DNA of 64,000 nt, from contig JAQTQQ010000004.1 in NCBI GenBank assembly GCA_028712175.1, positions 2,180 through 66,179 on the forward strand, in the 5' to 3' direction. The notes under the pieces are model-generated. The model ran no database searches and was not told where the DNA came from. It saw nothing but the letters and a program-made list of their open reading frames with translations. Made by a program: the position numbers and the translations under genes. Shown here piece by piece: positions 25,000-61,664 of this stretch. The stretch is from Candidatus Omnitrophota bacterium. GTDB taxonomy: Bacteria > Omnitrophota > Gorgyraeia > Gygaellales > Profunditerraquicolaceae. Within the stretch, counting starts at the first letter, position 1, and the number at the start of each line of letters is the position of its first letter.

Positions 25000-25777
25000 T
25001 AAGGCTCCTGACAAACTTAGCCACCCTTTCAACCATACTGCGGCTGCCGAGATTCTTCCTAATTTTATCAACAATTGCACTGCCGATAATTACTCCGTCT
25101 GAAAATTTAGAGGCCTCTTGAGCCTGTTGCGCTCCAGAAATACCAAAACCAACACAAACAGGCAAAGAGGTAAACTTTTTAATCTTAGCAAGGTTGGTTT
25201 TTAAATCAGCGCTTAGATTATTACGCTTACCGGTTACCCCGGTTAATGAAACATAGTAAATAAAACCTTTTGCTTTTTTTGATATTGCTTTAATCCGCTC
25301 GCCTGAGCTAGTCGGCGCAATAAAACAAATGTTAATAAGCCCTGATTTATCCGCATAACGGATAAACTCCCTTGCCTCTTCCGGCGGCAAGTCCGGAACA
25401 ATAATCCCGTCAACTCCTGAAATTACAGCTTGATCAACAAATTCTTTCTCTCCAAAACGAAAAATAGGATTATAATAAGTCATCAGGCATATCGGGATAC
25501 CGGTACTCTTACGCAATTTCTTTACTAAATTTAGGATCTTCTGCAGATTAACCCCTTTTTTAAGGGAATATGCCGAGGCTTCCTGAATAACCGGGCCATC
25601 AGCTAATGGATCAGAAAAAGGCACGCCTAATTCAATTATATCTACCCCGCTCTTTTCAAAGCTTAAGACAAGCCTGGCTGTCGCAGGTAAATCCGGAAAA
25701 CCCGCGGTTATAAAAGCTATAAGGGCTTTTTTATTCCGTTTCTTCAATAGTACAAATTTTTCCTTAATACGATTCAT
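24992..25777 (-). CDS. trpA: Tryptophan synthase alpha chain
   Basis: 261 aa TrpA TIM barrel. Confidence 0.9.
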
Positions 25778-26936
25778 GTAAATCCTTATCCCCTCTTCCG
25801 GAAAGACAAACTATAACTACCGCTTTCTTAAAATATTTAGCTGACTTTTTTAAATAAGCAATGGCATGTGCGGATTCTAATGCAGGAATAATTCCTTCAA
25901 CTTGTGATAACAGCCTAAACCCATCCATAGCCTCTTTATCGGTAATTGCCACATAATCAGCCCTTTTTATTTCTTTGTAATAAGCATGCTCCGGTCCCAC
26001 CCCCGGATAATCAAGGCCCGCGGCAACTGAATGGGCATTTTTGATCTGGCCGAATTTATCCTCCAAAATCTTTGATTTAGAACCATGCAGTACCCCGACC
26101 GAACCTGCCTCAAGGCTTGCCGAATGTTTCCCGCTTGATAACCCCAAGCCTGCGGCTTCAACTCCGATCATCTTTACCGTTGAATCATTAAAAAAAGGAT
26201 GGAATAAACCTATGGCATTGCTTCCGCCTCCGACACAAGCCACTAAATAATCAGGAAGACGGTTTTCCTTATTTAAAATCTGCCCCCTTGCCTCGCGGCC
26301 AATCACAGATTGAAAATTACGCACCATCTCAGGATAAGGATGCGGCCCGGCCACCGTTCCGATAACATAATAAGTGCTGCGCACGTTAGTAACCCAATCA
26401 CGCAAAGCTTCGGTCATCGCATCTTTTAGAGTCTGCGTTCCGCTTTTTACGCTGATGACTCTTGCGCCCAATAACCTCATGCGCATAACATTCAAGGCCT
26501 GGCGGCCAATATCTTCCTGGCCCATATATATGTCACATTTTAAACCGAATAAAGCTGCAACAGTTGCAGTAGCAACTCCATGCTGGCCTGCCCCAGTTTC
26601 CGCAATTAACCTTTTTTTGCCCATTTTAACCGCCAAAAGCACCTGACCTAAGGTATTATTGATTTTATGAGAACCGGTATGCAGCAAGTCTTCCCGTTTT
26701 AAATAAATCTTCATTATCCCTAAATGGCGGCTTAAGTTTTTAGCCAGATATAATGCCGTAGGCCTGCCTGCGTATTCACGCAACAAAAAGGAAAACTCTT
26801 TAGCAAACTCCTTGTTCTCTTTTGCCTCTAAATATTCTTTTTCCAATTCATCAAGGGCATAAATTAACGTCTCGGGGACGAACCTGCCGCCAAATTCCCC
26901 AAAATGCCCTGTTCTATCCGGCACCCTGTTATTCAT
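25764..26936 (-). CDS. trpB: Tryptophan synthase beta chain
   Basis: 390 aa PLP enzyme with the HTGSHKINN motif. Confidence 0.95.
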
Positions 26937-27547
26937 CTAGAAACCTCTTTCATGAATTCCTTTATTTTTTTATGATTTTTTTTACCGGGCTCATCTTCCA
27001 AACTGCTTGATACATCTACCCAGCCGGGTTTTAATAATTTGACTGCCCTTGCTACATTAGAAGAAGTTAAACCTCCCGATAAAAACATAATAGGAGTTAT
27101 TTTACCTAGATACGCAAGCATTTTCCAGTTAAATCTTTTCCCCGTACCGCCTAATTGATTATTCGAGAAGCTATCAAATAAATAGGCAAAGGTATTATAC
27201 TTGGATACCCCGTGGAGATCTTCTTTTCTGCTTATTCTAAAAGCCTTAATTACCTTATATCCTTTAAATTTGCGGCAATATGCTGGGGACTCCTGGCCGT
27301 GAAACTGCAGCATATCTAAATTACACTGGCTGGCAATTTTTTTTACTCTCGAAACGGGTTCATCAGCAAAAACTCCTACCCGCTTGATTTTCTTCGGTAA
27401 AATCAGGGATATCTTTCTTGCCGCGCTCGGGCTTATATAGCGCGGGCTTTTTTTATAAAAAACAAATCCTAATGCATCTGCGCCTTCAAAATAACATACA
27501 AGGGCATCTTCTAAATTAGTTACTCCGCATATTTTAACTTTTATCAT
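26933..27547 (-). CDS. trpF: Phosphoribosylanthranilate isomerase
   Basis: 204 aa beginning [10 protein letters not shown]. Confidence 0.85.
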
Positions 27548-36747: not shown

Positions 36748-39302
36748 TGTCCAACCTCCTTAGGAGTTAAACTTGACATCTTAAGCCAATTAGGGCCTTT
36801 TTTTATATCTATCTTTATCGGGACATCAAACTTTACAACATTCTCCATTCTGTCTTTTACCAAAGAACAGAGCACATTCAATTCATCCGATGGTAAATCA
36901 AAAACCAGCTCATCATGGATCTGTAAAATCATTTTAGCTTTTAAGCCTTTTATCTTAATCCCTGCGGATATATTAATCATCGCCAATTTAATCAAATCGC
37001 TGGCTGTGCCCTGAATGGGAGTATTTACCGCCTGACGCTCGGCAAATTGCCTAATTCCAATATTTTTATTATTAATCTCCGGGATATACCTTCTCCTTCC
37101 CAGGAGAGTAGTAACAAAACCTTGCTCTTGGGCCTTTTTAATCTGCGAATCGATATATTCTTTTACCTTGGGGTAACGCAGGAAATATGCATCGATAAAA
37201 TCCTGGGCTTGATTTACAGAAATACCCAAATCTTTGCTTAAACCGTATGCGCTCTGGCCGTAAATAATCCCGAAATTTACCCTTTTAGCTACTTCGCGCA
37301 TATCATCATTAACCTCTCTCTCGGTAATATTATAAATTAAAGAAGCGGTCAAGCGGTGCACATCCTGATCAAGGCTAAACGCTTTAACCAGCGTATTATC
37401 CCCTGATAAATGCGCAAGCACCCTTAATTCTATTTGAGAATAATCGCAGGACAATAGACAGCTATCCTTGTCCGATGCAATAATCGCCTGCCTAATTTTA
37501 CTGCCGATATCGGTTTTAACGGGAATATTCTGCAGATTAGGATTACTTGAGCTAAGCCGGCCTGTTTCGGTTCCCGTCTGGTTGAAAGATGTATGCACTC
37601 TTTGGGTCTTCTGGTCCGCTAATTTAGGCAAAGCATCGACATAAGTATTCTTTAATTTGGTCAGCTGCCTGTATTCCAATAAAAAAGCGGGGAGCGCATG
37701 CCTATCCTGCAGGCGCTTTAATACTTCTTCATCCGTAGATGGGCCGGTCTTAGTCTTCTTAATTACAGGCAACTTAAGCTTTTCGAATAAAACACTCCCT
37801 AGCTGTTTCGGAGAATTGATATTAAACTGCGTATCGGCTGCTTCATAAATATCCGAAACTAATTTTATTAACCTCTTTTCTATCTCGCCCGAAAGCTCTT
37901 TAAGAAAAACCAAATCCAGTTTTATTCCGTCGATCTCCATCTGAGCCAATATGCTAACCAAAGGCATCTCAAGCTCGGTAAATAATTTAATTAGCCCCTT
38001 TTCCAGCAAGGCTGCATTTAATACGGGTTTTAATTTAAGCACAAGGGCCAAGGTATCCAAGGTGTTCAATGAACCTTCCCGGATAAAATCGCCTAAGTTC
38101 TCCAATGCCAGATCCACAGGCGAATAACTTGCCCGCGATGGATTTAATAAATAGGCTGCGATCATAGTATCAAAATCCGCACCATTTAATTCCAGGCCTT
38201 CCTTAAAAAGCAAAACCTTTAATTTCTTAAGGTCGTGTCCGGTTTTCTTTATTTTTTCATCAGCGATAACAGTTTTTATGCATTCTTTGGCGGATTGAGC
38301 ATTAAAGATTTTACCTTCGATCGCAAAATAAAGTTCATTAACACCCGAACCGAAAATAGCGATCTCTTCAGCATGATTCATTAAATTTTTCAACTCCGTT
38401 TGGCTGCAATAAAACAAATTGGCCTTAATATCTTTATCATCTGAAGTACCAAGATCGCCTAATAGCTTTTTAAATTCTAACCTTTTAAATATCTTTGATA
38501 ACCCCGCTATATCCGGCGTGCCAACCTTAGCCTCTTTCAAATTAAGCTCTATCCCTACTTCTTGATTTAGGCTGATAAGCTCTTTGTTCAATCTTATCCG
38601 CTCAAGATTATCGGATATCGACTCTCTTATTCTCTCAGGTACAACCTTTGCGATATTTTCCATTAATTTTTCCAAAGAGCCGAATTCAATGATAAGCTTT
38701 TTCGCTGTTTTATCTCCTATGCCGGGCACTCCCGGAATATTATCCGCATCATCACCCATAAGAGCAATAATGTCCGGCACCCTTTCAGGAGAAACCCCAA
38801 AATACTCCCTAACTTTATCTAAATCGTAAAGCGTGCCCTCGTCCTTATAGGGATTAAAAACCGAGACATATTTATCCACTAATTGCAGAATATCTTTATC
38901 GCTGCTTACTATTGTCACGGGGATCTTTTTTTTAGCGCCAGACCTGGAAAGCTGGGCGATTATATCATCAGCCTCAAAACCGGGCTTCTCGAAAATAGGT
39001 ATACCGTAGGCAGAAATAATCTCCTTAATTATAGGAATCTGGCTAACCAGACCGTCGGGCATGGCGCGCCTTTGCATCTTATATTGCGCAAGCTTTTCCT
39101 GCCGGAACGTCTTTCGCGAAACATCAAAACAACAGGCCAGATAATCCGGTTTTTTCTCTTTTAATATCTTATTAAGGATGTTGACAAACCCGTAGACCGC
39201 GTTTGTCTCCTGCCCACGGGATGTCCTTAAATCCTTTAAAGCATAGTAAGCCCGATAGCAAAATGCATTCGCGTCAATAAGGAATAAACTTTTCTCAGCC
39301 AT
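36744..39302 (-). CDS. polA: DNA polymerase I
   Basis: 852 aa with a 5'-3' exonuclease domain, an exonuclease-like middle domain, and a family A polymerase domain. Confidence 0.95.
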   Translation of the reverse strand: MAEKSLFLIDANAFCYRAYYALKDLRTSRGQETNAVYGFVNILNKILKEKKPDYLACCFDVSRKTFRQEKLAQYKMQRRAMPDGLVSQIPIIKEIISAYGIPIFEKPGFEADDIIAQLSRSGAKKKIPVTIVSSDKDILQLVDKYVSVFNPYKDEGTLYDLDKVREYFGVSPERVPDIIALMGDDADNIPGVPGIGDKTAKKLIIEFGSLEKLMENIAKVVPERIRESISDNLERIRLNKELISLNQEVGIELNLKEAKVGTPDIAGLSKIFKRLEFKKLLGDLGTSDDKDIKANLFYCSQTELKNLMNHAEEIAIFGSGVNELYFAIEGKIFNAQSAKECIKTVIADEKIKKTGHDLKKLKVLLFKEGLELNGADFDTMIAAYLLNPSRASYSPVDLALENLGDFIREGSLNTLDTLALVLKLKPVLNAALLEKGLIKLFTELEMPLVSILAQMEIDGIKLDLVFLKELSGEIEKRLIKLVSDIYEAADTQFNINSPKQLGSVLFEKLKLPVIKKTKTGPSTDEEVLKRLQDRHALPAFLLEYRQLTKLKNTYVDALPKLADQKTQRVHTSFNQTGTETGRLSSSNPNLQNIPVKTDIGSKIRQAIIASDKDSCLLSCDYSQIELRVLAHLSGDNTLVKAFSLDQDVHRLTASLIYNITEREVNDDMREVAKRVNFGIIYGQSAYGLSKDLGISVNQAQDFIDAYFLRYPKVKEYIDSQIKKAQEQGFVTTLLGRRRYIPEINNKNIGIRQFAERQAVNTPIQGTASDLIKLAMINISAGIKIKGLKAKMILQIHDELVFDLPSDELNVLCSLVKDRMENVVKFDVPIKIDIKKGPNWLKMSSLTPKEVGQ

Positions 39303-39355
39303 TAATCAACTATAAAAGGAATTCAATATAAGGAAAGATATTTTGCGGTACGCTT

Positions 39356-40114
39356 CTATCGCGACAAAGCTCTCAACCCTGCCTTTTCAATGAATGCTTC
39401 GATCTCTTCATTGTCTGGCTCCAGCTGCTGTGCATCCAGAGCCAGCTTAATTGCCAAAGCAAGATCCCCATCATTAAAACTTTGCCTGGCTTTCTTGAAA
39501 TAATCGCGGGCCTGCTCCTTATCTTCTTTGAACGTGGATTTTCTTACTGTAACATCTTCCATAAGATCGAGGACTTCTTCTTCTCGCTGATCAGCAAATA
39601 CGCTATCGCTTAGGACTGAACGGATATCTTTCAGCCGATTAGCTGCCTTCAGCGCCCAAGGATCATCCGGAGAACCTAAAGCTGACCTTTTAGCCCAATA
39701 AAACTCTGCTTTCTTTAAATTACGCTTATTTTCATAAAAAAATGCCAGGTTAGTATAGGCACTTAAATAAGCGGGGTCTATTTTTATCGCCCTTAAATAA
39801 TTCTCTTCAGCCTTATCAAGATCTCCTTGGGCTTCGTAAATAACCCCCAAATCATTATAAGCAACGGCATAATTAGGGTCTAAAGCAACTGCCTTCTGAT
39901 ACCACCCCTTGGCTTCGGATAAATTACCAATAGCTTGATGCCTAGCCCCTTCTTCTCTGTATTTATGGGCTTGCGATTCTAAAGTATAGGGATGGTCTTC
40001 AGCCGCTTTAGGCTTAACAGGAGCCCCTTTGGCAAAGAGCGAATCCGCAAAACAGAAAACGCATAATATTGTAGCTATGATAATTAAGTATTTGGGCAGG
40101 ATATCTCTATTCAT
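39356..40114 (-). CDS. Secreted TPR-repeat protein
   Basis: A signal peptide / N-terminal TM segment followed by multiple TPR units. Confidence 0.7.
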   Translation of the reverse strand: MNRDILPKYLIIIATILCVFCFADSLFAKGAPVKPKAAEDHPYTLESQAHKYREEGARHQAIGNLSEAKGWYQKAVALDPNYAVAYNDLGVIYEAQGDLDKAEENYLRAIKIDPAYLSAYTNLAFFYENKRNLKKAEFYWAKRSALGSPDDPWALKAANRLKDIRSVLSDSVFADQREEEVLDLMEDVTVRKSTFKEDKEQARDYFKKARQSFNDGDLALAIKLALDAQQLEPDNEEIEAFIEKAGLRALSR

Positions 40115-40124
40115 TTATGAAAAT

Positions 40125-40153
40125 ATTATACACATTTAAAACATAGACGTCAA
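40125..40153 (-). promoter_or_regulatory. Sigma70-type promoter TTGACG-17nt-TATAAT, near-leaderless
   Basis: On the minus strand, TTGACG (40153-40148), a 17-nt spacer, then TATAAT (40130-40125). The ATG is 10 nt after the -10. Confidence 0.55.
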
Positions 40154-40159
40154 GAAAAA

Positions 40160-42721
40160 TTAAATAATCGGATCCATGGTCAATGCCGGATGGGCCACTT
40201 TATGCAAAAAGACTAAAAGCTCTTCGGAGCTTGTCGCAACCGCCTCATCGGCAATCTTATCCAATAAGTCCGGCTGATTAATTTCGTTTGCCCTTTCCTT
40301 TAGCTTATCGCCTAAAATGTTTTTTAATTCTTTAGGCATCCAGACGACCCTGGCCAACCCGCCTTCAGCTGAAATAAATTTCCTGCTTAAAATATATAAT
40401 TTGCCCACCCCTAAAAATCCGGGCGTCTGCACGCCCCCCCCGACTGAACCGGCTAAAGTAGTAAAGCTCATTCCTGAAGGAGTCATGCCGGAATAATCCC
40501 GATGCACTATCATTACCCCGTTAGCTTCAGGGATAATCGCCACTATGCATTCAAAGCATCCGCAGGAAGACTGCGGCCCGTCCATCATCGAATAGATACT
40601 GACTGCCTCAATAGTATGATTGGATTTCTGCTCAACAAACTCGTTTACATTATCCCATTGGCCGAGCCTTGCATCCAAAAGATTTCCTTTGAGAACAGGC
40701 TGATTCGGCCCGGTAGGCGTAATTTCAAAAGAAGCCTTGGCGTCAAGCCAGGAATATGCACCACATAACCCTAAACGCTCCGGAGTAACAATACAAACAT
40801 GATTCGGCGCAAAAGACTGACAGAGCAGGCAAGAATAAAAAGTATCCACGCTTTCATCAGTCATTCCGGCAATCCTCTCATCACGCTCATTATATGCTTT
40901 TTGCGCAGCCAGCGAAAGCTTCTGGACATCCTCTTGGTTCGTATAAAGCTTAACCTGAATTTTATCCACAATAGCGCTATATTCCTGATGCAACATAGCA
41001 TGCAAAATTACCCCTAGATGCCTAAGCCGAAAACCTTTATTAAAAGCATCTTTTGAAATCCGAATCCAAACCATATCGCGTTGCCCCATATGCATAAGCC
41101 CCATTGCATAATTTATAAAACGATGGATCTGGCGCTCTAATATCGGTTCAAAATCTCTTTGCATTTTGCGCCCAAAAACACTGACCATAATTGCCAAAGG
41201 CAGTGATTTAGCATCTTGGCTTAATTGATCTATATCACGGCCGATTAATTCCACTCTTCCGTCGCTAACATTTGCCTCATCCTCAATGGACAAAAGTTCG
41301 ACAGCCGCGCTTGCCTTGCCTCCGAACTCAACAGCCAGCTGCTCCTTACGCACACGCTCACCTTCAAATGCTGCGGCATAAGGCACAGGGACTGCAACTT
41401 CAGAGATCTTAGCTTTAATTCCCCGCGTCAGGATACACTTAGAAGGAAGCTTCTCGTAATCTTTTTCCGTAACCAAAGCTTCAAATAATGTGGTATCTAT
41501 TTTAGCTAACTGCGGAAGATCTAAATCGGAGATTATTGGCAGTCCAAAAGCAAGGGCGCCTAAACCGGTCGCTACCAAAAGCTCATCAACATGGCTAAGC
41601 AGGAGCACAAACGCAGGCACCCGGTCGCGGACATAATCCGCAGCCTTTTCCCATTGACCCGGCTTAATCCCTCCGTAAATCAATGGCGCGCGTACTGCAA
41701 AATTTATGGCGTAAATAGCAGAAAGATAATCATCGCCTAAAGGAACAATATAATTTTCTAACCCTATCCCTATACCCTTATTTTCAAGTTGCTGCCTAAA
41801 ACTTCTGTCACCCGCACTTCCTGCCAGCAGACTGACAATGCCCTTAGACTGAAAACTACGGATGAGATACAGGGCCGTTTTTTCATCTTTAGCCGGGCCC
41901 AAAATTACAGCAATCCCGGATATCCTGCCGTCAACTAATTGCAGGCCGAGTGAACGCAGAATTTTATCCGGAAGAAAACCCAGCCCTTCTTTAGGGTGCT
42001 GGTGATTTAATACCGCTAACGCGGCTAAGATCTCCTCGCAAATCAAAGTGCCAATACCTTTATTTAGCATGCCGGCTAAAGAATTAACCGTAAGCCCGCC
42101 GGAAGCTGCCTTATTATTAACTAAACCTTCAGCTTGATAAAAAACATCCGAGCAATCTTTAAGTGTTTTTACTTCAACATTCAGAAGCGCATTAATTAAA
42201 GGCAGGTAATAATTTGTTTCGCCAAATTCAATCTTGGCACTTTCGCCATTTTGGGCTATTGCGCTATCCAAAGCTTGCCGCGTAAAGAGCAATGCGCTAT
42301 CGGCGCCCTTTGTCCCAAGCTCTATTAATAATTTATCCAAACCTTCGCTCACAGTTTTCTTTTTAAGGTTACCGGCTATTTCTTTATCAATAAAAATAAC
42401 CAGGCAGGCGCCGATGGCCTTACCATCCTTTAATTTAACCGCCTCTGCCCTGCCTTCGCCGACAATCTCCTTGATCTGACTATTGATAACTTCAATATCT
42501 TCGGGCAATTCTGCGGTAATTTGGTCTTTGATTAAAAGCTTAAGGCCGACTTTGTATTTTTCATGAATTAATCTAGCTAAGTCAATTGCTGACTCCGCCG
42601 GACCCTCAATACAAACAGTATCATTGATAAGATAATCCTCTAACTTTTTAAAATCATCATCGGAACTTATTAAAATTACCCCTTTTTTCCTGGCCCCGGG
42701 TATCTGCGGTAAATTCCCCAT
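40160..42721 (-). CDS. acsB: Acetyl-CoA synthase (CODH/ACS A-cluster subunit AcsB/CdhC-type) with a roughly 110-aa N-terminal extension
   Basis: A-cluster ligand pattern CxxCx8Cx9C followed by the bridging C-G-C (SSCGCFE). Similarity to Moorella-type AcsB runs along the full length. Confidence 0.85.
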   Translation of the reverse strand: MGNLPQIPGARKKGVILISSDDDFKKLEDYLINDTVCIEGPAESAIDLARLIHEKYKVGLKLLIKDQITAELPEDIEVINSQIKEIVGEGRAEAVKLKDGKAIGACLVIFIDKEIAGNLKKKTVSEGLDKLLIELGTKGADSALLFTRQALDSAIAQNGESAKIEFGETNYYLPLINALLNVEVKTLKDCSDVFYQAEGLVNNKAASGGLTVNSLAGMLNKGIGTLICEEILAALAVLNHQHPKEGLGFLPDKILRSLGLQLVDGRISGIAVILGPAKDEKTALYLIRSFQSKGIVSLLAGSAGDRSFRQQLENKGIGIGLENYIVPLGDDYLSAIYAINFAVRAPLIYGGIKPGQWEKAADYVRDRVPAFVLLLSHVDELLVATGLGALAFGLPIISDLDLPQLAKIDTTLFEALVTEKDYEKLPSKCILTRGIKAKISEVAVPVPYAAAFEGERVRKEQLAVEFGGKASAAVELLSIEDEANVSDGRVELIGRDIDQLSQDAKSLPLAIMVSVFGRKMQRDFEPILERQIHRFINYAMGLMHMGQRDMVWIRISKDAFNKGFRLRHLGVILHAMLHQEYSAIVDKIQVKLYTNQEDVQKLSLAAQKAYNERDERIAGMTDESVDTFYSCLLCQSFAPNHVCIVTPERLGLCGAYSWLDAKASFEITPTGPNQPVLKGNLLDARLGQWDNVNEFVEQKSNHTIEAVSIYSMMDGPQSSCGCFECIVAIIPEANGVMIVHRDYSGMTPSGMSFTTLAGSVGGGVQTPGFLGVGKLYILSRKFISAEGGLARVVWMPKELKNILGDKLKERANEINQPDLLDKIADEAVATSSEELLVFLHKVAHPALTMDPII

Positions 42722-43591
42722 TTATAACCCGCTTGCCTCTAGAACCGCAGGCACCAGTTTATTCCAGCCGATTGGCATAATATGAACCCCTTGGCAATAA
42801 GGTTTTAATTTCTTAATCAAAGAGCTGGCAATTTCTATAGAAGTAGCTGCCTTATCCTTACTCTCCTGCATTTCTTTAATTAAATTATCCGGGACAAAAA
42901 TTCCTGCTACATTTTTATTCATAAAATTAGCCATAGCCGAAGATTTTAATAAAACAATACCTGCTATAACCGGAATTTTAATATGCTTAATCTTAGAAAT
43001 AAAATTATCAAAAATTTTTTCGTCAAAAATAGCCTGTGTTTGAAAAAATTCAGCCCCTGCGGCTATTTTTTTCTCCATTTTCATAATCTGAGGTTCCAGC
43101 GGCTCTGAATTAGGATTGACTACTGCGCCAAGGCAGAATTTAGGGAATATGCCCGCCAATTTATTTCCGTTCATGTCCTGGCCGGTTTCTAGTTTTCTGG
43201 CAACTTGGAGTAACTGAACCGAGTCCAAATCGAAAACCGGTTTTGCCTGCGGATGGTCTCCTTTAATCGGATGGTCGCCGGTAGTAATCAATATATTTTC
43301 CAATCCTAATGCGGCGGCAGAAAGCAAATCTGACTGCAGGGCAAGCCGGTTGCGGTCACGGCAGGTAAGCTGATAAATCGATTCAAAACCTTTTTGCTTA
43401 AGCAGATAACTCACCGCCAAAGACCCTAAACGCATTACTGAACTTTGTAAATCCGTAACGTTAATCGCATCTACTTTTGCGCGAATAAGCTCAGCCTCAT
43501 CCAGTAATTTCTTTACTTCGATCCCCTTATCCGGGCCGCTCTCCGAAGTAATTATAAATTTCCCTGACTGTATTTTTTCTTTAAATATCAT
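42722..43591 (-). CDS. metF: 5,10-methylenetetrahydrofolate reductase
   Basis: 289 aa MTHFR TIM barrel, adjacent to acsB. Confidence 0.8.
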   Translation of the reverse strand: MIFKEKIQSGKFIITSESGPDKGIEVKKLLDEAELIRAKVDAINVTDLQSSVMRLGSLAVSYLLKQKGFESIYQLTCRDRNRLALQSDLLSAAALGLENILITTGDHPIKGDHPQAKPVFDLDSVQLLQVARKLETGQDMNGNKLAGIFPKFCLGAVVNPNSEPLEPQIMKMEKKIAAGAEFFQTQAIFDEKIFDNFISKIKHIKIPVIAGIVLLKSSAMANFMNKNVAGIFVPDNLIKEMQESKDKAATSIEIASSLIKKLKPYCQGVHIMPIGWNKLVPAVLEASGL

Positions 43592-43605
43592 GTTTTCTTA
43601 GATTA

Positions 43606-43690
43606 AGGGTTGATAACCTATGGGCGATGGCCGAGAAAACCGAAGGTTTTATGAACTTTGCCTATAGTCTTTCGACCAATAAATTATTCC
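43606..43690. repeat. Modular intergenic palindromic repeat, copy E (inverted orientation)
   Basis: The reverse complement ggtcgaaagactatagg matches the copy B/C/D modules. There is also an aaaacc-gaa-ggtttt hairpin at 43636-43650. Confidence 0.55.
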
Positions 43691-43777
43691 AGAATTCCGG
43701 TTTCTATAGCAAACTTTGCGCTAACATCTAACAACCTAAATAACTATAAACAATCTTATTGACTCGAAACGTAAAGC

Positions 43778-44620
43778 TTATTGTTGAAGTTTAGCTGCCT
43801 CGACTAGGTTACGCATCAAGATAACTACCGTAAGCGGACCCACCCCTCCCGGAACAGGAGTGATATAGCTAGCGCGTTTTTCTGCTGCTTGAAACCCCAC
43901 ATCACCGACAATTTTACCGTTAGCACGATTTATTCCCACATCCACTACAATAGCGCCTTTCTTAATCCATTCACCATTAATTATACCGGCCTGTCCTACG
44001 GCCGAAATAAGCAAATCTGCTTTGCGCACATGCTCTTTCAGTTTTCCTGCTTTGCTTGTCCCGATATGACAAATAGTAACGGTGGCCAGTCTTTCCAATA
44101 AAAGCAAGGCAAGAGGCTTACCCACAATCTCGCTAGAACCAACCACTACCGTTTCTTTGCCGCACAAGTCTATGCCTGTTGAATTCAATAACTCCATTAC
44201 CGCGCTGGCCGTACAAGTAGCGGCCCGGTTATTGCCGAAAATCACATGCCCCATATTTAAAGGATGCATCCCTTCCGCATCCTTTTGCGCAGAAATTACT
44301 TCGCTTATTTTTCTATAATCCATCTGGGGACCAAGCGGCGTTTGCACAATAATTCCGTTAACAGTTTTATCTGCATTAAGCTTGTTGATGAGATCTATTA
44401 ATACATTCTCGGTAATATTGTCGTTTAACTTATACAGCCTATAGGCTATGCCGAGGCTTGCTGCGGTTTTTTCCTGAGAAGATACATAGCTGGCTGCGCC
44501 AAGATTATTCCCGACTAATATGCTGGCAAGCACCGGGGCCTGTTTTAAATTTTGTACGCTAAGCCTGATCGCTTCTTTTATTTTTTCAGCTACGGGTTTA
44601 CCTTCTAGTAATTTTGCCAA
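43778..44620 (-). CDS. folD: Bifunctional methylene-THF dehydrogenase / methenyl-THF cyclohydrolase
   Basis: 280 aa FolD. Confidence 0.92.
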   Translation of the reverse strand: MAKLLEGKPVAEKIKEAIRLSVQNLKQAPVLASILVGNNLGAASYVSSQEKTAASLGIAYRLYKLNDNITENVLIDLINKLNADKTVNGIIVQTPLGPQMDYRKISEVISAQKDAEGMHPLNMGHVIFGNNRAATCTASAVMELLNSTGIDLCGKETVVVGSSEIVGKPLALLLLERLATVTICHIGTSKAGKLKEHVRKADLLISAVGQAGIINGEWIKKGAIVVDVGINRANGKIVGDVGFQAAEKRASYITPVPGGVGPLTVVILMRNLVEAAKLQQ

Positions 44621-45161
44621 AGCCGTCCTCCGTATTTTTACGGATCCTTTTAATAATCTTATCCATCTGATTCAATTCTTTTTTTACACCTTGAGCTAAT
44701 TTTTTATCTCCCAGGCTCTGCAAATTTACCTCTACATTAAAACGTGCACAAACAAAAGCCGATTCCAACAAAACTGCTGCTGCCGCGACATCGCTTAACA
44801 AAGCCACATTACCCTTCTTAAGCAAAGGCGGGCATAATTTAGCTGCCCGGGCACAAAGGCGGCTAAGCATAAATGGCACATCCATTGCCTTTCTGATATC
44901 CCTGCTCTGATAGGCCTCTACATCCAAATCCACCAAATCAAGGAAATCATTCTTTAATTGCTCGGATTCAACCAAAACATCTTTTAACTCGGCTTCAAAC
45001 ACAGCATACTTGAGCTTACCTAAGGTAAAGTTGACAACCATGCTGATAAGGCTTGCGGCCATTGCCGCGTTTAAAGCTGCGGCAGAACCGCCTCCGGGAG
45101 CAGGAAGCCTTGCAGAAAGATCATCCAGGTATTTAGCCAGACTTTGAGTTTTATATTTCAT
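44598..45161 (-). CDS. fchA: Methenyltetrahydrofolate cyclohydrolase / formiminotransferase-cyclodeaminase domain protein
   Basis: PAPGGGSAAAL motif of the cyclodeaminase/FchA family. Confidence 0.75.
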   Translation of the reverse strand: MKYKTQSLAKYLDDLSARLPAPGGGSAAALNAAMAASLISMVVNFTLGKLKYAVFEAELKDVLVESEQLKNDFLDLVDLDVEAYQSRDIRKAMDVPFMLSRLCARAAKLCPPLLKKGNVALLSDVAAAAVLLESAFVCARFNVEVNLQSLGDKKLAQGVKKELNQMDKIIKRIRKNTEDGFGKITRR

Positions 45162-45165
45162 GGTT

Positions 45166-45546
45166 TTAAATTGTAAGATTTTCGTTTAATTCAAAGGCAT
45201 TTTTTATTAAGGATACCTCGGCTTTATTATTCCTATATAAAATTGATAATACATCAAAACGAGCCGGATGCTTCAAAAGATTATTAAGCTTCAAATAACA
45301 AACAGCTGCTTTTGCAATATTGCTCTGCTTCTTAAATGAAACGGCCTCAGATGGTTCACCTAGACAAAGAGAATGCCTGCCTTTGACCTCCACAAAACAG
45401 ATTGACTCTTTATCCCTTGCAATTATATCAATTTCCCCAAACCTGGTCCTATAATTTATTTGGAGGATTTTATAGCCTTGTGATCTTAAAAATTCTGCCG
45501 CTTCTTTCTCGCTGGCCTTTCCGAATTCTATGTGTTCTCCAGGCAC
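45166..45546 (-). CDS. yraN: YraN-family (UPF0102) endonuclease
   Basis: 126 aa with a PD-(D/E)XK-like core (GEIDIIA...VEVK). Confidence 0.75.
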   Translation of the reverse strand: MPGEHIEFGKASEKEAAEFLRSQGYKILQINYRTRFGEIDIIARDKESICFVEVKGRHSLCLGEPSEAVSFKKQSNIAKAAVCYLKLNNLLKHPARFDVLSILYRNNKAEVSLIKNAFELNENLTI

Positions 45547-46142
45547 CTTAAAAAGCTCTTTCTATGAATTCCCAAAGCCCCCATTTCTTTTAAAGCATTG
45601 CGATGCTCTTCTGTCGGGTATCCCTTGTGCCTGATAAAACCGTATTGCGGATAGATTTTATCATAAGCATCCATAATTTTATCCCTGTGTACTTTGGCGA
45701 CTATGGAAGCTGCGGCAATACTCAAAGACTTGCCGTCTCCCCTGATAATACTCTGGTAAGGAAAATTCAACTTTAGGCGTAAATTACCGTCAATAAGCAC
45801 AAATACACGTTTTAACTCAGCAGGCTTCAGCTGTTTAGCAAGTTTAGCTACTGACTTTTGCATGGCTAAAATTGTAGCCTGCAGGATATTGATCCGGTCA
45901 ATCTGTTTATGGCTAACTTGAGTTACCGCGTATATGGATTTGTTTCTTATCTCGGAAAAAGCGTTTTTTCTTCTTAAAGGGGTTAATTTCTTGGAATCAT
46001 CAATACGATTATAAAAACTAAAACTATTCAGGAGTACCGCTGCGGCTACTACCGGCCCGGCTAACGGTCCTCTGCCGGCTTCATCTACTCCGATAACCAA
46101 ATCAAAACCTTTAATTTTTAGTTTTCTTTCGTATGCCAGCAC
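45528..46142 (-). CDS. rnhB: Ribonuclease HII
   Basis: 204 aa with the GVDEAGRGP motif. Confidence 0.9.
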   Translation of the reverse strand: MLAYERKLKIKGFDLVIGVDEAGRGPLAGPVVAAAVLLNSFSFYNRIDDSKKLTPLRRKNAFSEIRNKSIYAVTQVSHKQIDRINILQATILAMQKSVAKLAKQLKPAELKRVFVLIDGNLRLKLNFPYQSIIRGDGKSLSIAAASIVAKVHRDKIMDAYDKIYPQYGFIRHKGYPTEEHRNALKEMGALGIHRKSFLRCLENT

Positions 46143-46498
46143 TAACTTGATTGCTCTTCTCTGCTTTCTATCTTGGTTGCATGTTTTCCGACTTTGCTGC
46201 GCAAGTAATAAAGCTTAGACCGCTTGACCTTGCCGGAACGGATAAGTTCAATACGCTCGATAACCGGTGAATAAAGCGGGAATACACGCTCAATACCTTC
46301 GCCGAAGGAAACTTTTCTCACTGTAAAATTTATTTTGGTACCCGAGCCTTTTCTGGCAATCACTACACCCTCAAAAGGATGCAGGCGGAATTTATCTGGA
46401 CCTTCCGGGATCCTGGTGAGAACCTTTACGGTATCTCCGACATTAAAAGCAGGCATCTCTTTCTTGGTAAATCCTGCCTCGATTGATTTTATGTCCAT
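46142..46498 (-). CDS. rplS: 50S ribosomal protein L19
   Basis: 118 aa L19. Confidence 0.92.
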   Translation of the reverse strand: MDIKSIEAGFTKKEMPAFNVGDTVKVLTRIPEGPDKFRLHPFEGVVIARKGSGTKINFTVRKVSFGEGIERVFPLYSPVIERIELIRSGKVKRSKLYYLRSKVGKHATKIESREEQSS

Positions 46499-46562
46499 TG
46501 TTACTGCTCCTTTCTGTTGCTTTTACTTTTTGATTAATCCTAATCTTAAAACGATAAAATCT

Positions 46563-49344
<2,782 letters not shown>

Positions 49345-57906: not shown

Positions 57907-59136
57907 TTAAAAATCTTGGCTTCTATAACCGGATACCTTGTTCAGTTTATTATAAAAATTCGGCTTTACCTTTGCGGGTTTAAGGGCCCCGGACTCTTCA
58001 TCAAAAACGAAAATATCCTGCATAGAATATTCTTTTGATTTTAAGACCTCGCTAATCTGAGTGACCCGGCGCCTGCCATCCGGAAACCGGGTTAAATAAA
58101 CAACCAGGTCTACTGCCCCGATAATCTGCCTTCTTGCAACTTCACCGGACATATTACTGCTTCCCATCAAGGCCAGTATTTCAAGACGATCCAGGGCTTC
58201 CGAAGGAGAGCTGGCATGAAGAGTAGTCATTGATCCTTCATGGCCCGTGCTCATCGCCTGAATCATGTCTAAAACTTCCCCTCCTCTTACCTCGCCGGCA
58301 ATAATCCTGTCTGGACGCATATGCAAGGCATTTTTAAACAAATCTCTTATACTTATTTCACCCTTGCCCTCAATATTAAAAGGCCGCGTTTCCATTGGCA
58401 CAGTATGTTTTCTTGAAATGATTAACTCACGGGTATCCTCAATGGTAATCAATCTTTCATTCTCGGGAATAAAATCAATTAAGGCATTCAAAAATGTTGT
58501 TTTACCAGTGCCCGCGCCTCCGGAAATCAATATATTCATCCGGGAAATTACACATGCCTTCAAGAATTCGGCGGCGGAAGAATTAAGGCTGCCCAACTTA
58601 ATAAGGTCGTCCATACGCAAAACATTATAGGAAAATTTCCTGATAGTCAATAACGGGCCTATCCTCGAAACCGGACTCCTGACTATATTAACACGCGAAC
58701 CGTCATTAAGCCGGGCGTCTACAAAAGGCTCAAATTCCGAGATCCTTCTGCCTACGGGCGAAATTATCTTTTCGATAAGATAGGAGACCTGGGCTTCATC
58801 ATTAAAAGTAATATCAGTGAGTTCTAGATTACCTTTGCGCTCAACATAAACCTGATGCGGGCCATTAATCATAATCTCGGTAACCCCATCGTCTTTAAGC
58901 AATTTCTCAATCGGACCAAAACCAAGAAAATAAGTTATTACTTCGCTTAGCAGTTCTTCCTGCTCATGGCGGTTAAGACTAATTTTATTCTCCCTAATAA
59001 CCGACCTAAAGGCAGCCTCTATTGTACGTTGAAATAGCGAGCGGTCCTCTTTGCCATAATTGGCTCTAAGCTCATCCTCGCGGAATCTCAATTTATCCAA
59101 TATGTCTTCTTTTACAGCCTGCAGGTGTTCGTTCAT
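57907..59136 (-). CDS. CpaF/TadA-family (VirB11-like) secretion ATPase, paralog 1
   Basis: 409 aa with Walker A GGAGTGKTT and Asp/His boxes typical of type II/IV secretion ATPases. Confidence 0.8.
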   Translation of the reverse strand: MNEHLQAVKEDILDKLRFREDELRANYGKEDRSLFQRTIEAAFRSVIRENKISLNRHEQEELLSEVITYFLGFGPIEKLLKDDGVTEIMINGPHQVYVERKGNLELTDITFNDEAQVSYLIEKIISPVGRRISEFEPFVDARLNDGSRVNIVRSPVSRIGPLLTIRKFSYNVLRMDDLIKLGSLNSSAAEFLKACVISRMNILISGGAGTGKTTFLNALIDFIPENERLITIEDTRELIISRKHTVPMETRPFNIEGKGEISIRDLFKNALHMRPDRIIAGEVRGGEVLDMIQAMSTGHEGSMTTLHASSPSEALDRLEILALMGSSNMSGEVARRQIIGAVDLVVYLTRFPDGRRRVTQISEVLKSKEYSMQDIFVFDEESGALKPAKVKPNFYNKLNKVSGYRSQDF

Positions 59137-60401: not shown

Positions 60402-61664
60402 TTAATCCTTTTTAAAAATTTCTTTAGATAAACTCACTCCTCTTTTTGCAAATAACGGATAGAATGCCGGCTCCACACCGGTAGTCTTAAAAACACCATA
60501 AACCTTGCCGTCTTCAACAACATTACTAATCTCGTAGTAGAAAATATCCTCCAGATTCACCCATCCGTTTTTTAACCCGTTGACCTGGGTAATGCGGGTA
60601 ATCTTACGCGATCCGTCAGCAAGCTGGTCCTGCTGGATAATTAAATGAAGGCTTGCCGCAATCTGGCGGTGTATTGCCTCTAAGGTTATCGGTATACCGG
60701 ACATAAGGATCATTGTCTCCAGGCGATGCAAAACCTCCGAAGGAGTATTTGCATGAATAACTGAAAGTGCCCCGTTGTGGCCCGAACACATTGCCTGAAG
60801 CATATCCAAGGCTTCTGCCCCTCTGATCTCCCCCAAAATAATCCTTTGAGGCCGCATACGCAGGGTATTGCGAAAAATATCCCTGATAGTAATTTCGCCT
60901 TTCCCTTCAATATTAGCCGGTTTTGTTTCAAGCCTGACGACATGGTCCTGGGCCAGGTGCAATTCAGCCGTATCTTCAATAGTAATCGTACGTTCGTCAT
61001 TACCGATATACCCGGAAAGTACCCCTACGGTAGTAGTTTTGCCGCTTCCGGTAGCGCCCGCAAAAACCATATTTACTTTGCCCTTAATGCATGCTATCAG
61101 AAAATCCGCCATCCTTCTGTCAAAAGTGCCTAATTCAATAAGGTCCTCGGCCTTTACGATTTTCTTAAGGAATTTACGTATGGTTATTGTCGGCCCGTCT
61201 AAAGCAAGCGGCGGGATAATGATGTTTACACGCGAACCATCCTGAAGGCAGACATCCGTATAGGGAGATAGCTCGTCAACCCTTCTCCTTGTAGGAGCCA
61301 AAATCTTCTGTACGATATACATCAGCTGCTGGTCGCTATCGAACTTAATATTTGTCAGTATTTTCTTTCCGTGCTTCTCTACATATACGTTCTGCGTACC
61401 ATTAATCATGATTTCCGTGATATCAGGGTCCATCATCAGCTTTTCAATGGGGCCGAACCCTGAAAATTCATCAACTAACTCGTTAATGATGTTATCTCTC
61501 TCTTCCTGCTTGAGCGGGCCGCGCGGCTGGCTTAAGATCCCCTCGAGGATATTCCTAACTACTGAAGCCACCTCAACTTTATCCCCGGAACTCTTTTGTA
61601 AAATATAGCTGTATTTTGCAATAAAATCTTCGCGTACCCTGCTTTTTAATGTCTGATGGCCCAT
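60402..61664 (-). CDS. CpaF/TadA-family (VirB11-like) secretion ATPase, paralog 2
   Basis: 420 aa with Walker A GATGSGKTT. It is clearly homologous to paralog 1 but divergent. Confidence 0.8.
   Translation of the reverse strand: MGHQTLKSRVREDFIAKYSYILQKSSGDKVEVASVVRNILEGILSQPRGPLKQEERDNIINELVDEFSGFGPIEKLMMDPDITEIMINGTQNVYVEKHGKKILTNIKFDSDQQLMYIVQKILAPTRRRVDELSPYTDVCLQDGSRVNIIIPPLALDGPTITIRKFLKKIVKAEDLIELGTFDRRMADFLIACIKGKVNMVFAGATGSGKTTTVGVLSGYIGNDERTITIEDTAELHLAQDHVVRLETKPANIEGKGEITIRDIFRNTLRMRPQRIILGEIRGAEALDMLQAMCSGHNGALSVIHANTPSEVLHRLETMILMSGIPITLEAIHRQIAASLHLIIQQDQLADGSRKITRITQVNGLKNGWVNLEDIFYYEISNVVEDGKVYGVFKTTGVEPAFYPLFAKRGVSLSKEIFKKD

What the first reader, a model, noticed from the sequence alone, without database searches (positions are those of the whole stretch)
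40160..45161. Partial Wood-Ljungdahl cluster: acsB with an N-terminal extension, plus metF, folD and fchA, but no CODH, corrinoid protein or methyltransferase nearby
The A-cluster ligands (CxxCx8Cx9C plus CGC) unambiguously identify acetyl-CoA synthase. As far as I can recall, Moorella AcsB aligns from about residue 110 onward, which leaves a unique N-terminal segment of about 110 aa. Flanking genes are polA and a TPR protein on one side and yraN/rnhB on the other, so acsA, acsCDE and fhs must be elsewhere or absent. A stand-alone ACS next to methyl-branch genes is an unusual arrangement.
Basis: partly seen in the sequence, partly recalled or inferred. Interest (0 to 1): 0.6.

Follow-up and report, generated by a model that had tools for sequence, protein, structure and literature searches.

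The report
Acetyl-CoA synthase carrying a flavoprotein relic
An uncultured Omnitrophota bacterium keeps only a stump of its carbon-fixing Wood-Ljungdahl operon, and the odd extra head on its acetyl-CoA synthase is the conserved leftover of a neighbouring flavoprotein gene that fused to it after the CO dehydrogenase genes were lost.

Summary
Window 40160-45161 (minus strand) encodes fchA, folD, metF and an 853-aa AcsB with intact A-cluster ligands. No cooS, cooF, cooC, acsC, acsD, acsE, RACo or fhs lies anywhere in the 64 kb.

The extra N-terminus (residues 1-112 plus a variable linker to 135) is not a mis-called start. It is present in all 120 closest homologues, all from Omnitrophota. It evolves under dN/dS 0.07-0.14 and folds confidently as a Rossmann domain.

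Its origin can be traced. In sister Omnitrophota the same chromosomal slot (rnhB-yraN…TPR-polA) holds fhs-fchA-folD-metF-cooS-cooF-FNOR-acsB. Other lineages have lost cooS/cooF and keep a shrunken 290-300-aa FNOR. Two proteins show that short FNOR fused to AcsB (1024-1027 aa). The window's clade keeps only the NAD-binding subdomain. This subdomain has no FAD domain and a degenerate GxGxxG, so it is probably not redox-active.

A truncated, CODH-less pathway in Omnitrophota is already published. The FNOR-relic fusion did not turn up in my literature searches.

Unresolved: whether these genomes keep a corrinoid protein and methyltransferase. The acsC-RACo-cooC-acsD-acsE cluster that relatives carry between trpF and trpB is missing at that site in the window and in two related genomes.

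The parts
44598..45161 (-). fchA, methenyl-THF cyclohydrolase (187 aa)
   Evidence: Pfam FTCD_C 144.5 bits. NCBIfam FchA 132.8 bits, below its 275 cut-off.
43778..44620 (-). folD, bifunctional methylene-THF dehydrogenase/cyclohydrolase (280 aa, TTG start)
   Evidence: Pfam THF_DHG_CYH and THF_DHG_CYH_C.
43592..43777 (-). 186-bp non-coding gap. Several relatives carry a 109-aa DMT_6/DUF486 membrane-protein gene in this slot.
   Evidence: relatives. No tblastn remnant. No Rfam match.
42722..43591 (-). metF, methylene-THF reductase (289 aa). Its TAA stop abuts the acsB ATG.
   Evidence: Pfam MTHFR 123.9 bits. Sequence.
42386..42721 (-). AcsB residues 1-112: relic NAD(P)-binding Rossmann subdomain of a FNOR-type flavoprotein. 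It has no FAD domain and a degenerate GxGxxG (G40-P-A42-x-x-A45).
   Evidence: AF2 pLDDT 87.8. Foldseek matches to TodA reductase, FFTR, CoADR and BphA4 at E 3e-6 to 1e-4, TMq about 0.7. Profile search hits residues about 111-222 of 290-300-aa Pyr_redox_2 proteins at E down to 7e-29. Alignment. dN/dS 0.07-0.14. Position 42 is variable.
42317..42385 (-). AcsB residues 113-135: poorly conserved linker
   Evidence: 27% mean identity against 69-84% elsewhere. dN/dS 0.36-0.40. pLDDT below 50.
40160..42316 (-). AcsB residues 136-853: canonical three-domain acetyl-CoA synthase core
   Evidence: NF040764 965.5 bits. PDB 1RU3, 1OAO and 6YTT at E about 1e-200.
40763..40831 (-). A-cluster [4Fe-4S] ligands C631, C634, C643, C653
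   Evidence: Motif found. Invariant in 62 homologues.
40556..40564 (-). Ni-Ni site ligands C720-G721-C722
39356..40114 (-). TPR protein, the conserved downstream neighbour that marks the end of the syntenic slot
   Evidence: Pfam TPR families. Conserved next to acsB in relatives.
45166..46142 (-). yraN and rnhB, the conserved upstream boundary of the slot. Relatives have fhs between yraN and fchA.
25764..27547 (-). trpF (26933-27547) and trpB (25764-26936), overlapping by 4 nt. This is the empty site where relatives L095, L129 and L103 carry acsC-RACo-cooC-acsD-acsE.
   Evidence: relatives. The site also lacks the cluster in two other genomes of the 853-aa AcsB clade.

Best explanation
The region is the stump of a formerly complete Wood-Ljungdahl operon in an Omnitrophota bacterium. 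Shown: fchA, folD and metF are followed by a canonical A-cluster acetyl-CoA synthase. Its extra 112-residue N-terminal domain is translated, conserved, and homologous to the NAD(P)H-binding subdomain of the FAD/NAD(P) oxidoreductase (FNOR) that sister lineages encode between cooS-cooF and acsB at the same locus. Inferred history: cooS and cooF were deleted. FNOR lost its C-terminal domain and its cofactor motifs. It then fused to acsB and lost both halves of its FAD domain, and fhs left the locus. Inferred function: the relic has no flavin domain and no usable dinucleotide-binding loop, so it is not a redox module. It most likely persists as a structural or partner-binding appendage of ACS. 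That would suggest FNOR once bound ACS directly. The ACS itself most likely works without its own CODH. It would either join methyl-THF-derived methyl groups with external CO, or cleave acetyl-CoA into methyl-THF plus CO. Both need a corrinoid Fe-S protein and methyltransferase encoded elsewhere, and I could not verify that these exist.
For: All 120 best homologues are 789-882 aa (all but one at least 839 aa). They cover 92-100% of the query (117 of 120 cover 100%) at 70-100% identity, and those with names are Omnitrophota. The extension is 69% conserved, against 74% for ACS domain A1. Its dN/dS is 0.07-0.14, against 0.03-0.09 for the core and 0.36-0.40 for the linker. AF2 gives a confident fold (pLDDT 87.8, pTM 0.83) that matches NAD domains of two-dinucleotide flavoproteins. 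A profile search of 1.84 billion representatives finds 290-300-aa Pyr_redox_2 proteins with the domain at residues about 111-222, and a 1024-aa full fusion, P0136. Gene maps of 80 GTDB loci show four forms at the slot rnhB-yraN…TPR-polA: cooS-cooF-FNOR(~420)-acsB(726); FNOR(~290-300)-acsB; FNOR::AcsB (L013, 1027 aa); and the 845-865-aa form. The forms that lack cooS and carry short or fused FNOR make one clade in an AcsB-core tree. The alignment shows that the window's extension starts at the FAD-to-NAD crossover (LPxIPGxxKxGV) and ends just before the chain would return to the FAD domain. The second glycine of GxGxxG is A, V, L, S, I, F or Y across the clade. CODH-less Wood-Ljungdahl pathways in 24 Omnitrophota species are reported in PMC10066038. 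The CooS-CooF-FNOR cluster is a described unit (PMC6344411).
Against: No experiment or structural model shows what the relic contacts, because the full-length AF2 model failed (pTM 0.35). A second CODH-less Omnitrophota lineage (L048, L051, L053, L055) has a plain 727-741-aa AcsB, so loss of CODH alone does not require the relic. The neighbour-joining tree is crude. The truncated-fusion forms are not strictly monophyletic in it, since L010 and L012 are misplaced or reflect repeated events. The assumed corrinoid protein and methyltransferase were not found. They are absent from the window and from the trpF-trpB site where relatives keep them.
Confidence: 0.72

Rival explanations
1. Orphan ACS. 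The clade with the 853-aa AcsB has lost CODH, the corrinoid Fe-S protein (AcsCD), its activator RACo, the methyltransferase AcsE, CooC and Fhs. AcsB, with its relic domain, survives for a different job, such as CO or acetyl-group handling with a non-canonical or host-derived methyl donor.
For: None of these genes is in 64 kb. The acsC-RACo-cooC-acsD-acsE cluster that relatives hold between trpF and trpB (L095, L129, L103) is missing there in the window and in the 922-kb and 612-kb contigs of two related genomes. None of the 120 best AcsC relatives lies on any long contig that carries an 853-type AcsB. fhs has also gone from the locus.
Against: The contig-matching test had little power. The trp-site AcsC is only about 52% identical to the query, below the cut of the list. 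All A-cluster ligands and all three ACS domains are under strong purifying selection, which fits normal catalysis, and normal catalysis needs a corrinoid partner. PMC10066038 describes the CODH-less species as having AcsB-E. No whole genome could be searched.
Confidence: 0.2
2. The relic is still a ligand-binding regulatory domain. It would bind NAD(P)H, CoA or another ADP-containing ligand and so tune ACS activity.
For: The Rossmann fold is kept. G40 and A45 of the loop are conserved, and many residues are invariant. Structural neighbours include CoA-disulfide reductases. Purifying selection is strong.
Against: The position of the second glycine, which must be small for pyrophosphate contact, is A, V, L, S, I, F or Y. 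The short FNOR ancestors already carry a roughly 15-aa deletion in this subdomain and a degenerate motif. Pfam, NCBIfam and PDB sequence searches with the domain alone found nothing significant.
Confidence: 0.15
3. The pathway is ordinary and complete but scattered. cooS/acsA, acsCDE, cooC and fhs all exist elsewhere in this genome, and the ACS works in a normal CODH/ACS complex.
For: Only 64 kb of a genome probably larger than 1 Mb was seen. In related lineages the corrinoid genes already sit about 10 kb away from acsB, so scattering does occur.
Against: At this locus cooS-cooF were specifically deleted in the whole clade, while sister clades keep them. Published surveys report Omnitrophota species with no AcsA or CooS at all. 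The trp-site corrinoid cluster is absent.
Confidence: 0.12
4. The extension is an annotation artefact. Translation really starts at an internal GTG or TTG near codon 124-128 and gives a normal-length AcsB.
For: GTG at codon 124 and TTG at codons 128 and 144 would give a protein of 710-730 aa.
Against: No convincing Shine-Dalgarno sequence precedes them. The upstream 112 codons have dN/dS 0.07-0.14. The start (M-x-NLPQIPGARKKGV) is conserved in 120 homologues, and the fold is confident. In L002 the gene has its own 19-nt spacer after metF.
Confidence: 0.03

Closest known systems
Bacterial acetyl-CoA synthase AcsB (Moorella thermoacetica 1OAO/1MJG, Carboxydothermus hydrogenoformans 1RU3, Clostridium autoethanogenum 6YTT)
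   Same: Residues 136-853 align end to end at E about 1e-200. The three domains, the CxxCx8Cx9C ligands and the CGC ligands are all present.
   Different: It carries an extra 112-aa Rossmann domain plus a 23-aa linker at the N-terminus. No CODH gene lies beside it.
CooS-CooF-FNOR gene cluster (Ni-CODH with a ferredoxin-like protein and a FAD-dependent NAD(P) oxidoreductase; PMC6344411, which cites Whitham 2015 and Geelhoed 2016)
   Same: The extension is homologous to the NAD subdomain of this FNOR. Sister Omnitrophota and a Clostridia MAG have cooS-cooF-FNOR directly upstream of acsB.
   Different: Here cooS and cooF are gone. Only one subdomain of FNOR survives, fused to AcsB, with no FAD domain, no C-terminal Rubredoxin_C domain and no intact GxGxxG.
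Truncated Wood-Ljungdahl pathway of Velamenicoccus archaeovorus-type Omnitrophota (PMC10066038)
   Same: Same phylum. The methyl-branch genes and AcsB are present, and AcsA/CooS/CooF are absent.
   Different: That work scores KEGG presence or absence and describes AcsB-E as present. The parts I read (main text and supplementary note) do not mention the AcsB extension, the FNOR fusion or the locus-level reduction series. Here AcsC-E were not found, and fhs is missing from the locus.
Incomplete Wood-Ljungdahl pathway of Dehalococcoides mccartyi (Zhuang et al. 2014, as cited in PMC9324843; details from my own knowledge)
   Same: ACS is kept without CODH. This gives a precedent for running ACS in the cleavage direction to supply methyl-THF, with CO as by-product.
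   Different: Dehalococcoides keeps AcsC/AcsD beside AcsB and lacks MetF. Here MetF is present, AcsC/AcsD are not nearby, and AcsB carries the relic domain.
PadH / NirB-N-terminal / rubredoxin-reductase type two-dinucleotide-binding flavoproteins (structures 3EF6, BphA4, CoADR, FFTR 6GNC)
   Same: The full-length FNOR of relatives scores best against PadH (314 bits) and the NirB N-terminus. The relic superposes on their NAD domains at TMq 0.6-0.74.
   Different: The relic is a single subdomain and cannot bind FAD. It matches no curated family on its own.

Membership tests
Acetyl-CoA synthase (bacterial AcsB, alpha/beta type) | Three-domain architecture (CODH_A_N, CdhC, ACS_CODH_B_C) scoring above the curated family cut-off | tested here: met
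   All three Pfam domains match. NF040764 scores 965.5 bits against a cut-off of 800.
Acetyl-CoA synthase (bacterial AcsB, alpha/beta type) | A-cluster ligands: four Cys for the [4Fe-4S] cluster plus Cys-Gly-Cys for the Ni-Ni site | tested here: met
   C631, C634, C643, C653 and C720-G-C722 are present and invariant in 62 homologues.
Acetyl-CoA synthase (bacterial AcsB, alpha/beta type) | Partner CODH (AcsA/CooS) encoded with it | tested here: not met
   No CooS in the 64 kb. cooS is present at the same slot in sister lineages. The rest of the genome was not testable.
Acetyl-CoA synthase (bacterial AcsB, alpha/beta type) | Corrinoid Fe-S protein AcsC/AcsD and methyltransferase AcsE available as methyl donor | tested here: inconclusive
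   Absent from the window and from the syntenic trpF-trpB site in three genomes of the clade. The whole genome could not be searched.
Acetyl-CoA synthase (bacterial AcsB, alpha/beta type) | Catalytic activity (acetyl-CoA synthesis or CO/acetyl-CoA exchange) | not testable with these tools
   Needs purified enzyme.
FNOR (CooS-associated FAD-dependent NAD(P) oxidoreductase, Pyr_redox_2 family) | N-terminal and C-terminal halves of the FAD-binding domain (GxGxxG-type motif and GD motif) | tested here: not met
   The extension starts after the first half of the FAD domain and ends before the second.
FNOR (CooS-associated FAD-dependent NAD(P) oxidoreductase, Pyr_redox_2 family) | Intact GxGxxG in the NAD(P)H subdomain | tested here: not met
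   The motif reads G40-P-A42-E-S-A45. Position 42 is A, V, L, S, I, F or Y in the clade.
FNOR (CooS-associated FAD-dependent NAD(P) oxidoreductase, Pyr_redox_2 family) | C-terminal Rubredoxin_C (dimerisation) domain | tested here: not met
   Present in the 420-aa FNOR of L021 and absent here.
FNOR (CooS-associated FAD-dependent NAD(P) oxidoreductase, Pyr_redox_2 family) | Homology of the NAD subdomain (sequence and fold) | tested here: met
   Profile hits at E down to 7e-29 to residues about 111-222 of short FNORs. Foldseek E 3e-6. 43-49% identity to P0125 for extensions of close relatives. Conclusion: derived from FNOR, but not a member.
Complete Wood-Ljungdahl gene cluster | fhs, fchA/folD, metF, cooS/acsA, acsB, acsC, acsD, acsE, cooC together | tested here: not met
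   Only fchA, folD, metF and acsB are present. Full clusters exist in other Omnitrophota.
Methylene-THF reductase MetF | MTHFR domain over the full length | tested here: met
   PF02219 at 123.9 bits over residues 4-288. It scores below all NCBIfam equivalog cut-offs. No MetV-like partner was seen nearby.

The most novel reading that the evidence does not exclude
A large clade of ultra-small Omnitrophota has discarded CODH, corrinoid protein, methyltransferase, nickel chaperone and formyl-THF synthetase, yet keeps an acetyl-CoA synthase under strong purifying selection. That enzyme is permanently fused to a cofactor-less relic of its former electron-transfer neighbour. On this reading ACS would act outside any Wood-Ljungdahl pathway, for instance using CO or methyl-corrinoid taken from a host or prey cell. 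The relic domain would be the docking site for a new partner.
Probability: 0.18. Interest if true: 0.75.

Novelty: new variant of a known kind. Interest (0 to 1): 0.45.

Why it matters
Three things follow. First, the locus gives a stepwise, locus-resolved record of how a Wood-Ljungdahl operon is dismantled in a streamlined and possibly host-dependent phylum. Second, FNOR stays beside acsB after CODH is lost and then fuses with it. This is the first hint I know of that the biochemically uncharacterised CooS-associated FNOR contacts ACS directly, and it gives a concrete construct to test. Third, it flags a common annotation trap. These proteins are named as ordinary 'acetyl-CoA decarbonylase/synthase alpha/beta' and would count towards carbon fixation in metagenome surveys, although the genomes may be unable to reduce CO2 to CO or even to methylate the enzyme.

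Tried and rejected
1. The full-length AF2 model (62-sequence alignment) gave pLDDT 60 and pTM 0.35, too poor to say where the relic docks.
2. Sequence searches with the extension alone found nothing significant in PDB, Pfam or NCBIfam. Only fold search and a self-built profile worked.
3. I tried to find AcsC in genomes of the clade by matching 'longest contig' lengths between the AcsB and AcsC hit lists. There were no true matches: the one shared value I checked, 5941, turned out to be a different contig, and the other, 5994, comes from different sources. The test lacks power, because only 120 hits are listed and genomes that do have CODH were not recovered either.
It did, however, yield L095 and L129 with the corrinoid cluster at trpF-trpB.
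5. The small ORFs at the trpF-trpB site of L171 and L095 are unrelated, so they do not show whether the cluster was inserted or deleted there.
6. No riboswitch or other Rfam family lies in 39000-46600. Promoter and terminator matches are at chance level.
7. metF-acsB readthrough was considered because the two genes are in frame and adjacent. It was rejected because relatives have a spacer or a different frame.
8. The look-up of the window's own NCBI contig through TrpB (P0336) found nothing on record. The Kizina 2022 paper on the V. archaeovorus genome is not held.

Full report
**Observation.** Pfam and NCBIfam confirm each. AcsB has the three ACS domains and passes the NCBIfam equivalog NF040764 (965.5 bits, cut-off 800) over residues 138-853. 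The A-cluster ligands are C631/C634/C643/C653 and C720-G-C722. Solved ACS structures (1RU3, 1OAO, 6YTT) align at E about 1e-200, but only from residue 136-139 onward. I read all ORFs of the 64-kb window and ran tblastn with CooS, CooF, CooC, AcsC, AcsD, AcsE, RACo and Fhs seeds taken from related loci. None of these genes is present. What little could be seen beyond the window ends (nusB-PHP-ribD-ribE on one side, a dxr-like gene on the other) holds no acs genes either.

**The extension is real.** The 120 best homologues among 5.8 billion proteins are 789-882 aa long, all but one at least 839 aa. All but three cover 100% of the query (the others 92-98%), at 70-100% identity, and those with names come from Candidatus Omnitrophota. 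They share the start M-x-NLPQIPGARKKGV. Residues 1-112 are 69% conserved on average, against 74% for ACS domain A1. Residues 113-135 form a variable linker at 27%. In two pairs with unsaturated synonymous sites, dN/dS of the extension is 0.07 and 0.14. The core gives 0.03-0.09 and the linker 0.36-0.40. Possible internal starts (GTG at codon 124, TTG at codon 128) lack a convincing Shine-Dalgarno sequence. In the relative L002 the gene follows metF after a 19-nt spacer, so the in-frame TAA-ATG junction in the window is incidental.

**What the extension is.** Curated libraries and PDB sequence searches give nothing significant for the extension. AlphaFold2 on a 19-sequence alignment gives a confident Rossmann-type domain (pLDDT 87.8, pTM 0.83). 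Foldseek places it on the NAD(P)H-binding domains of two-dinucleotide flavoproteins: toluene dioxygenase reductase 3EF6 at E 2.6e-6, then FFTR 6GNC, CoA-disulfide reductases, NADH peroxidase and BphA4, with TMq about 0.6-0.74. A profile of the extension searched against 1.84 billion representatives finds, besides AcsB-fused forms and fragments, some 30 clusters with E below 1e-10 (best 7e-29). Nearly all are 284-320-aa proteins that carry the domain at residues about 111-222. One is a 1024-aa protein, P0136. The 290-300-aa proteins are Pyr_redox_2 flavoproteins. P0136 is such a flavoprotein fused to a complete AcsB.

**Where it came from.** I scanned one genome per GTDB species with the AcsB alignment and mapped the neighbours of 80 loci, with Pfam and NCBIfam checks. 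In Omnitrophota the Wood-Ljungdahl genes occupy one conserved slot, rplS-rnhB-yraN-[…]-TPR-polA-glgA. That slot shows a graded series:
- **Form 0.** fhs-fchA-folD-metF-cooC-cooS-cooF-FNOR(~430 aa)-acsB(725)-acsC-RACo-cooC-acsD-acsE (L052, L054).
- **Form 1.** The same up to acsB, which is then followed by TPR-polA (L021, L022, L025, L026, L030, L033, L035, L039, L042). In L021 the CooS passes TIGR01702 (675 bits). The FNOR is Pyr_redox_2 + Rubredoxin_C and scores best against PadH.
- **Form 2.** cooS and cooF are gone and FNOR is shortened to 286-304 aa (L012, L015-L018, L020, L031, L036, L037, L040, L068).
- **Form 3.** Short FNOR is fused to AcsB (L013, 1027 aa; P0136).
- **Form 4.** Only the NAD subdomain is fused, giving 845-865 aa for complete genes (the window, L002-L011; also L014, whose gene is cut by its contig end). 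fhs is also gone from the locus.

In a neighbour-joining tree of AcsB cores, forms 2-4 make one clade beside the clades of forms 0 and 1. The tree is crude. L010 and L012 break strict monophyly of form 4, so either the tree is wrong in detail or truncation happened more than once. An alignment of long, short, fused and relic forms shows three things. The short FNORs have lost the C-terminal domain, have a roughly 15-aa deletion in the NAD subdomain, and have lost the canonical GGGxxG; most have also lost the Asp of the FAD 'GD' motif. The window's extension begins exactly at the FAD-to-NAD crossover strand (LPxIPGxxKxGV). It ends (…LVIFID) just before the chain would return to the FAD domain. 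In the 120 homologues the position of the second glycine of GxGxxG is A, V, L, S, I, G, F or Y. Canonical dinucleotide binding is therefore unlikely.

**The corrinoid genes.** In forms 1-4 acsB is followed by TPR-polA, so acsC/D/E must lie elsewhere or be absent. It did return contigs L095, L129 and L103. In L095 the order is glgA-coaE-rho-rpmE-prfA-prmC-murA-trpG-trpD-trpC-trpF-(PsbP-like)-acsC-RACo-cooC-acsD-acsE-trpB-trpA, the same gene order as window 22-36 kb apart from the inserted genes. L129 shows the same order as far as it was compared. L103 shows trpD-trpC-trpF, a 210-aa ORF and then acsC at its contig end. On a few housekeeping proteins these contigs group near a form-2 genome.

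In the window trpF and trpB overlap by 4 nt with nothing between them. In two other genomes of the 853-aa clade (a 922-kb and a 612-kb contig) the site holds only a 117-125-aa ORF, which is zinc-ribbon-like in the one that could be read. So the corrinoid/methyltransferase cluster is missing from its known position in all three genomes of the clade that I could examine. Whether it moved or was lost I could not determine. No whole genome could be searched, and the contig-length matching of AcsC hits had little power.

**Mechanism.** Shown: a canonical, selected ACS; a selected N-terminal Rossmann relic derived from FNOR; no CODH, corrinoid, methyltransferase, CooC or Fhs genes in 64 kb. Inferred: the relic is not a redox module and most likely serves as a structural or partner-binding piece. 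Its retention and fusion after CODH loss suggest that FNOR contacted ACS in the ancestral CooS-CooF-FNOR-ACS system. The literature notes that no FNOR of this type has been studied biochemically (PMC6344411).

A caution applies. Another CODH-less Omnitrophota lineage (L048, L051, L053, L055) has a plain AcsB, so the relic is not simply a replacement for CODH. The ACS probably works as in the published CODH-less Omnitrophota pathway, using CO as substrate (PMC10066038). Alternatively it may work in the Dehalococcoides-style cleavage direction, which yields methyl-THF and CO (Zhuang 2014, as cited in PMC9324843). Both need a corrinoid protein that remains to be found.

**Comparison and novelty.** The enzyme is a member of the bacterial AcsB family, and all sequence-level defining features are met. 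The extension is derived from FNOR but is not a member of that family: FAD domain, GxGxxG and C-terminal domain were all tested and not met. A partial Wood-Ljungdahl pathway in Omnitrophota is known. The fusion, its origin and the locus-level reduction series were not found in my literature searches. I rate this a new variant of a known kind, of moderate interest. The interest would rise considerably if complete genomes of the clade prove to lack the corrinoid protein and methyltransferase altogether.

Noticed in passing
L085 6164-9991 (CP070780.1, complete 1.43-Mb Omnitrophota genome): AcsB is 1275 aa and carries an intein (Pfam Intein_splicing plus LAGLIDADG_3) inside the C-terminal ACS domain. 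L116 has a 1305-aa AcsB that may be similar.
   Followed up: no
L078 670-4074 (Armatimonadota MAG DASXVN01): A single ORF of 1134 aa matches both AcsB and AcsD, a possible AcsB-AcsD fusion. The ORF runs to the contig end.
   Followed up: no
window 43592-43777; L010 8796-9125: Relatives carry a 109-aa DMT_6/DUF486 membrane-protein gene between folD and metF. The window has a 186-bp non-coding gap there, with no detectable remnant and no Rfam match.
   Followed up: partly
window 26933-26936 (trpF/trpB overlap); L095 9395-15919; L171 9651-10004: The trpF-trpB junction is a variable insertion spot. It is empty in the window. Two relatives have a 117-125-aa ORF there (zinc-ribbon-like in L171). L095 and L129 have a PsbP-like gene plus acsC-RACo-cooC-acsD-acsE.
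   Followed up: yes
window 42719-42724: The metF stop codon TAA is followed directly, in the same frame, by the acsB ATG. This is also so in L011, but not in L002 (19-nt gap) or L010 (1-nt gap).
   Followed up: yes
window 40125-40153 (minus strand): An 11-of-12 match to the sigma-70 consensus (TTGACG, 17 nt, TATAAT) lies in the 45-bp spacer between acsB and the TPR gene. Promoter-like matches overall are at chance level.
   Followed up: no
window 57907-59136 and 60402-61664: Two paralogous CpaF/VirB11-like secretion ATPase genes flank proS. They may relate to the Tad pili reported for Omnitrophota.
   Followed up: no
L032 and L029: In L032 only CooF and FNOR are seen between a partial metF at the contig edge and acsB, with no cooS. 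L029 keeps a 448-aa FNOR but neither cooS nor cooF. Both lie inside the clade that otherwise has cooS, which suggests repeated independent loss of CODH.
   Followed up: partly
window 1-64000: Nearly every gene is on the minus strand, and GC skew is negative throughout (-0.08 to -0.24). No replication origin or terminus lies in the window.
   Followed up: no
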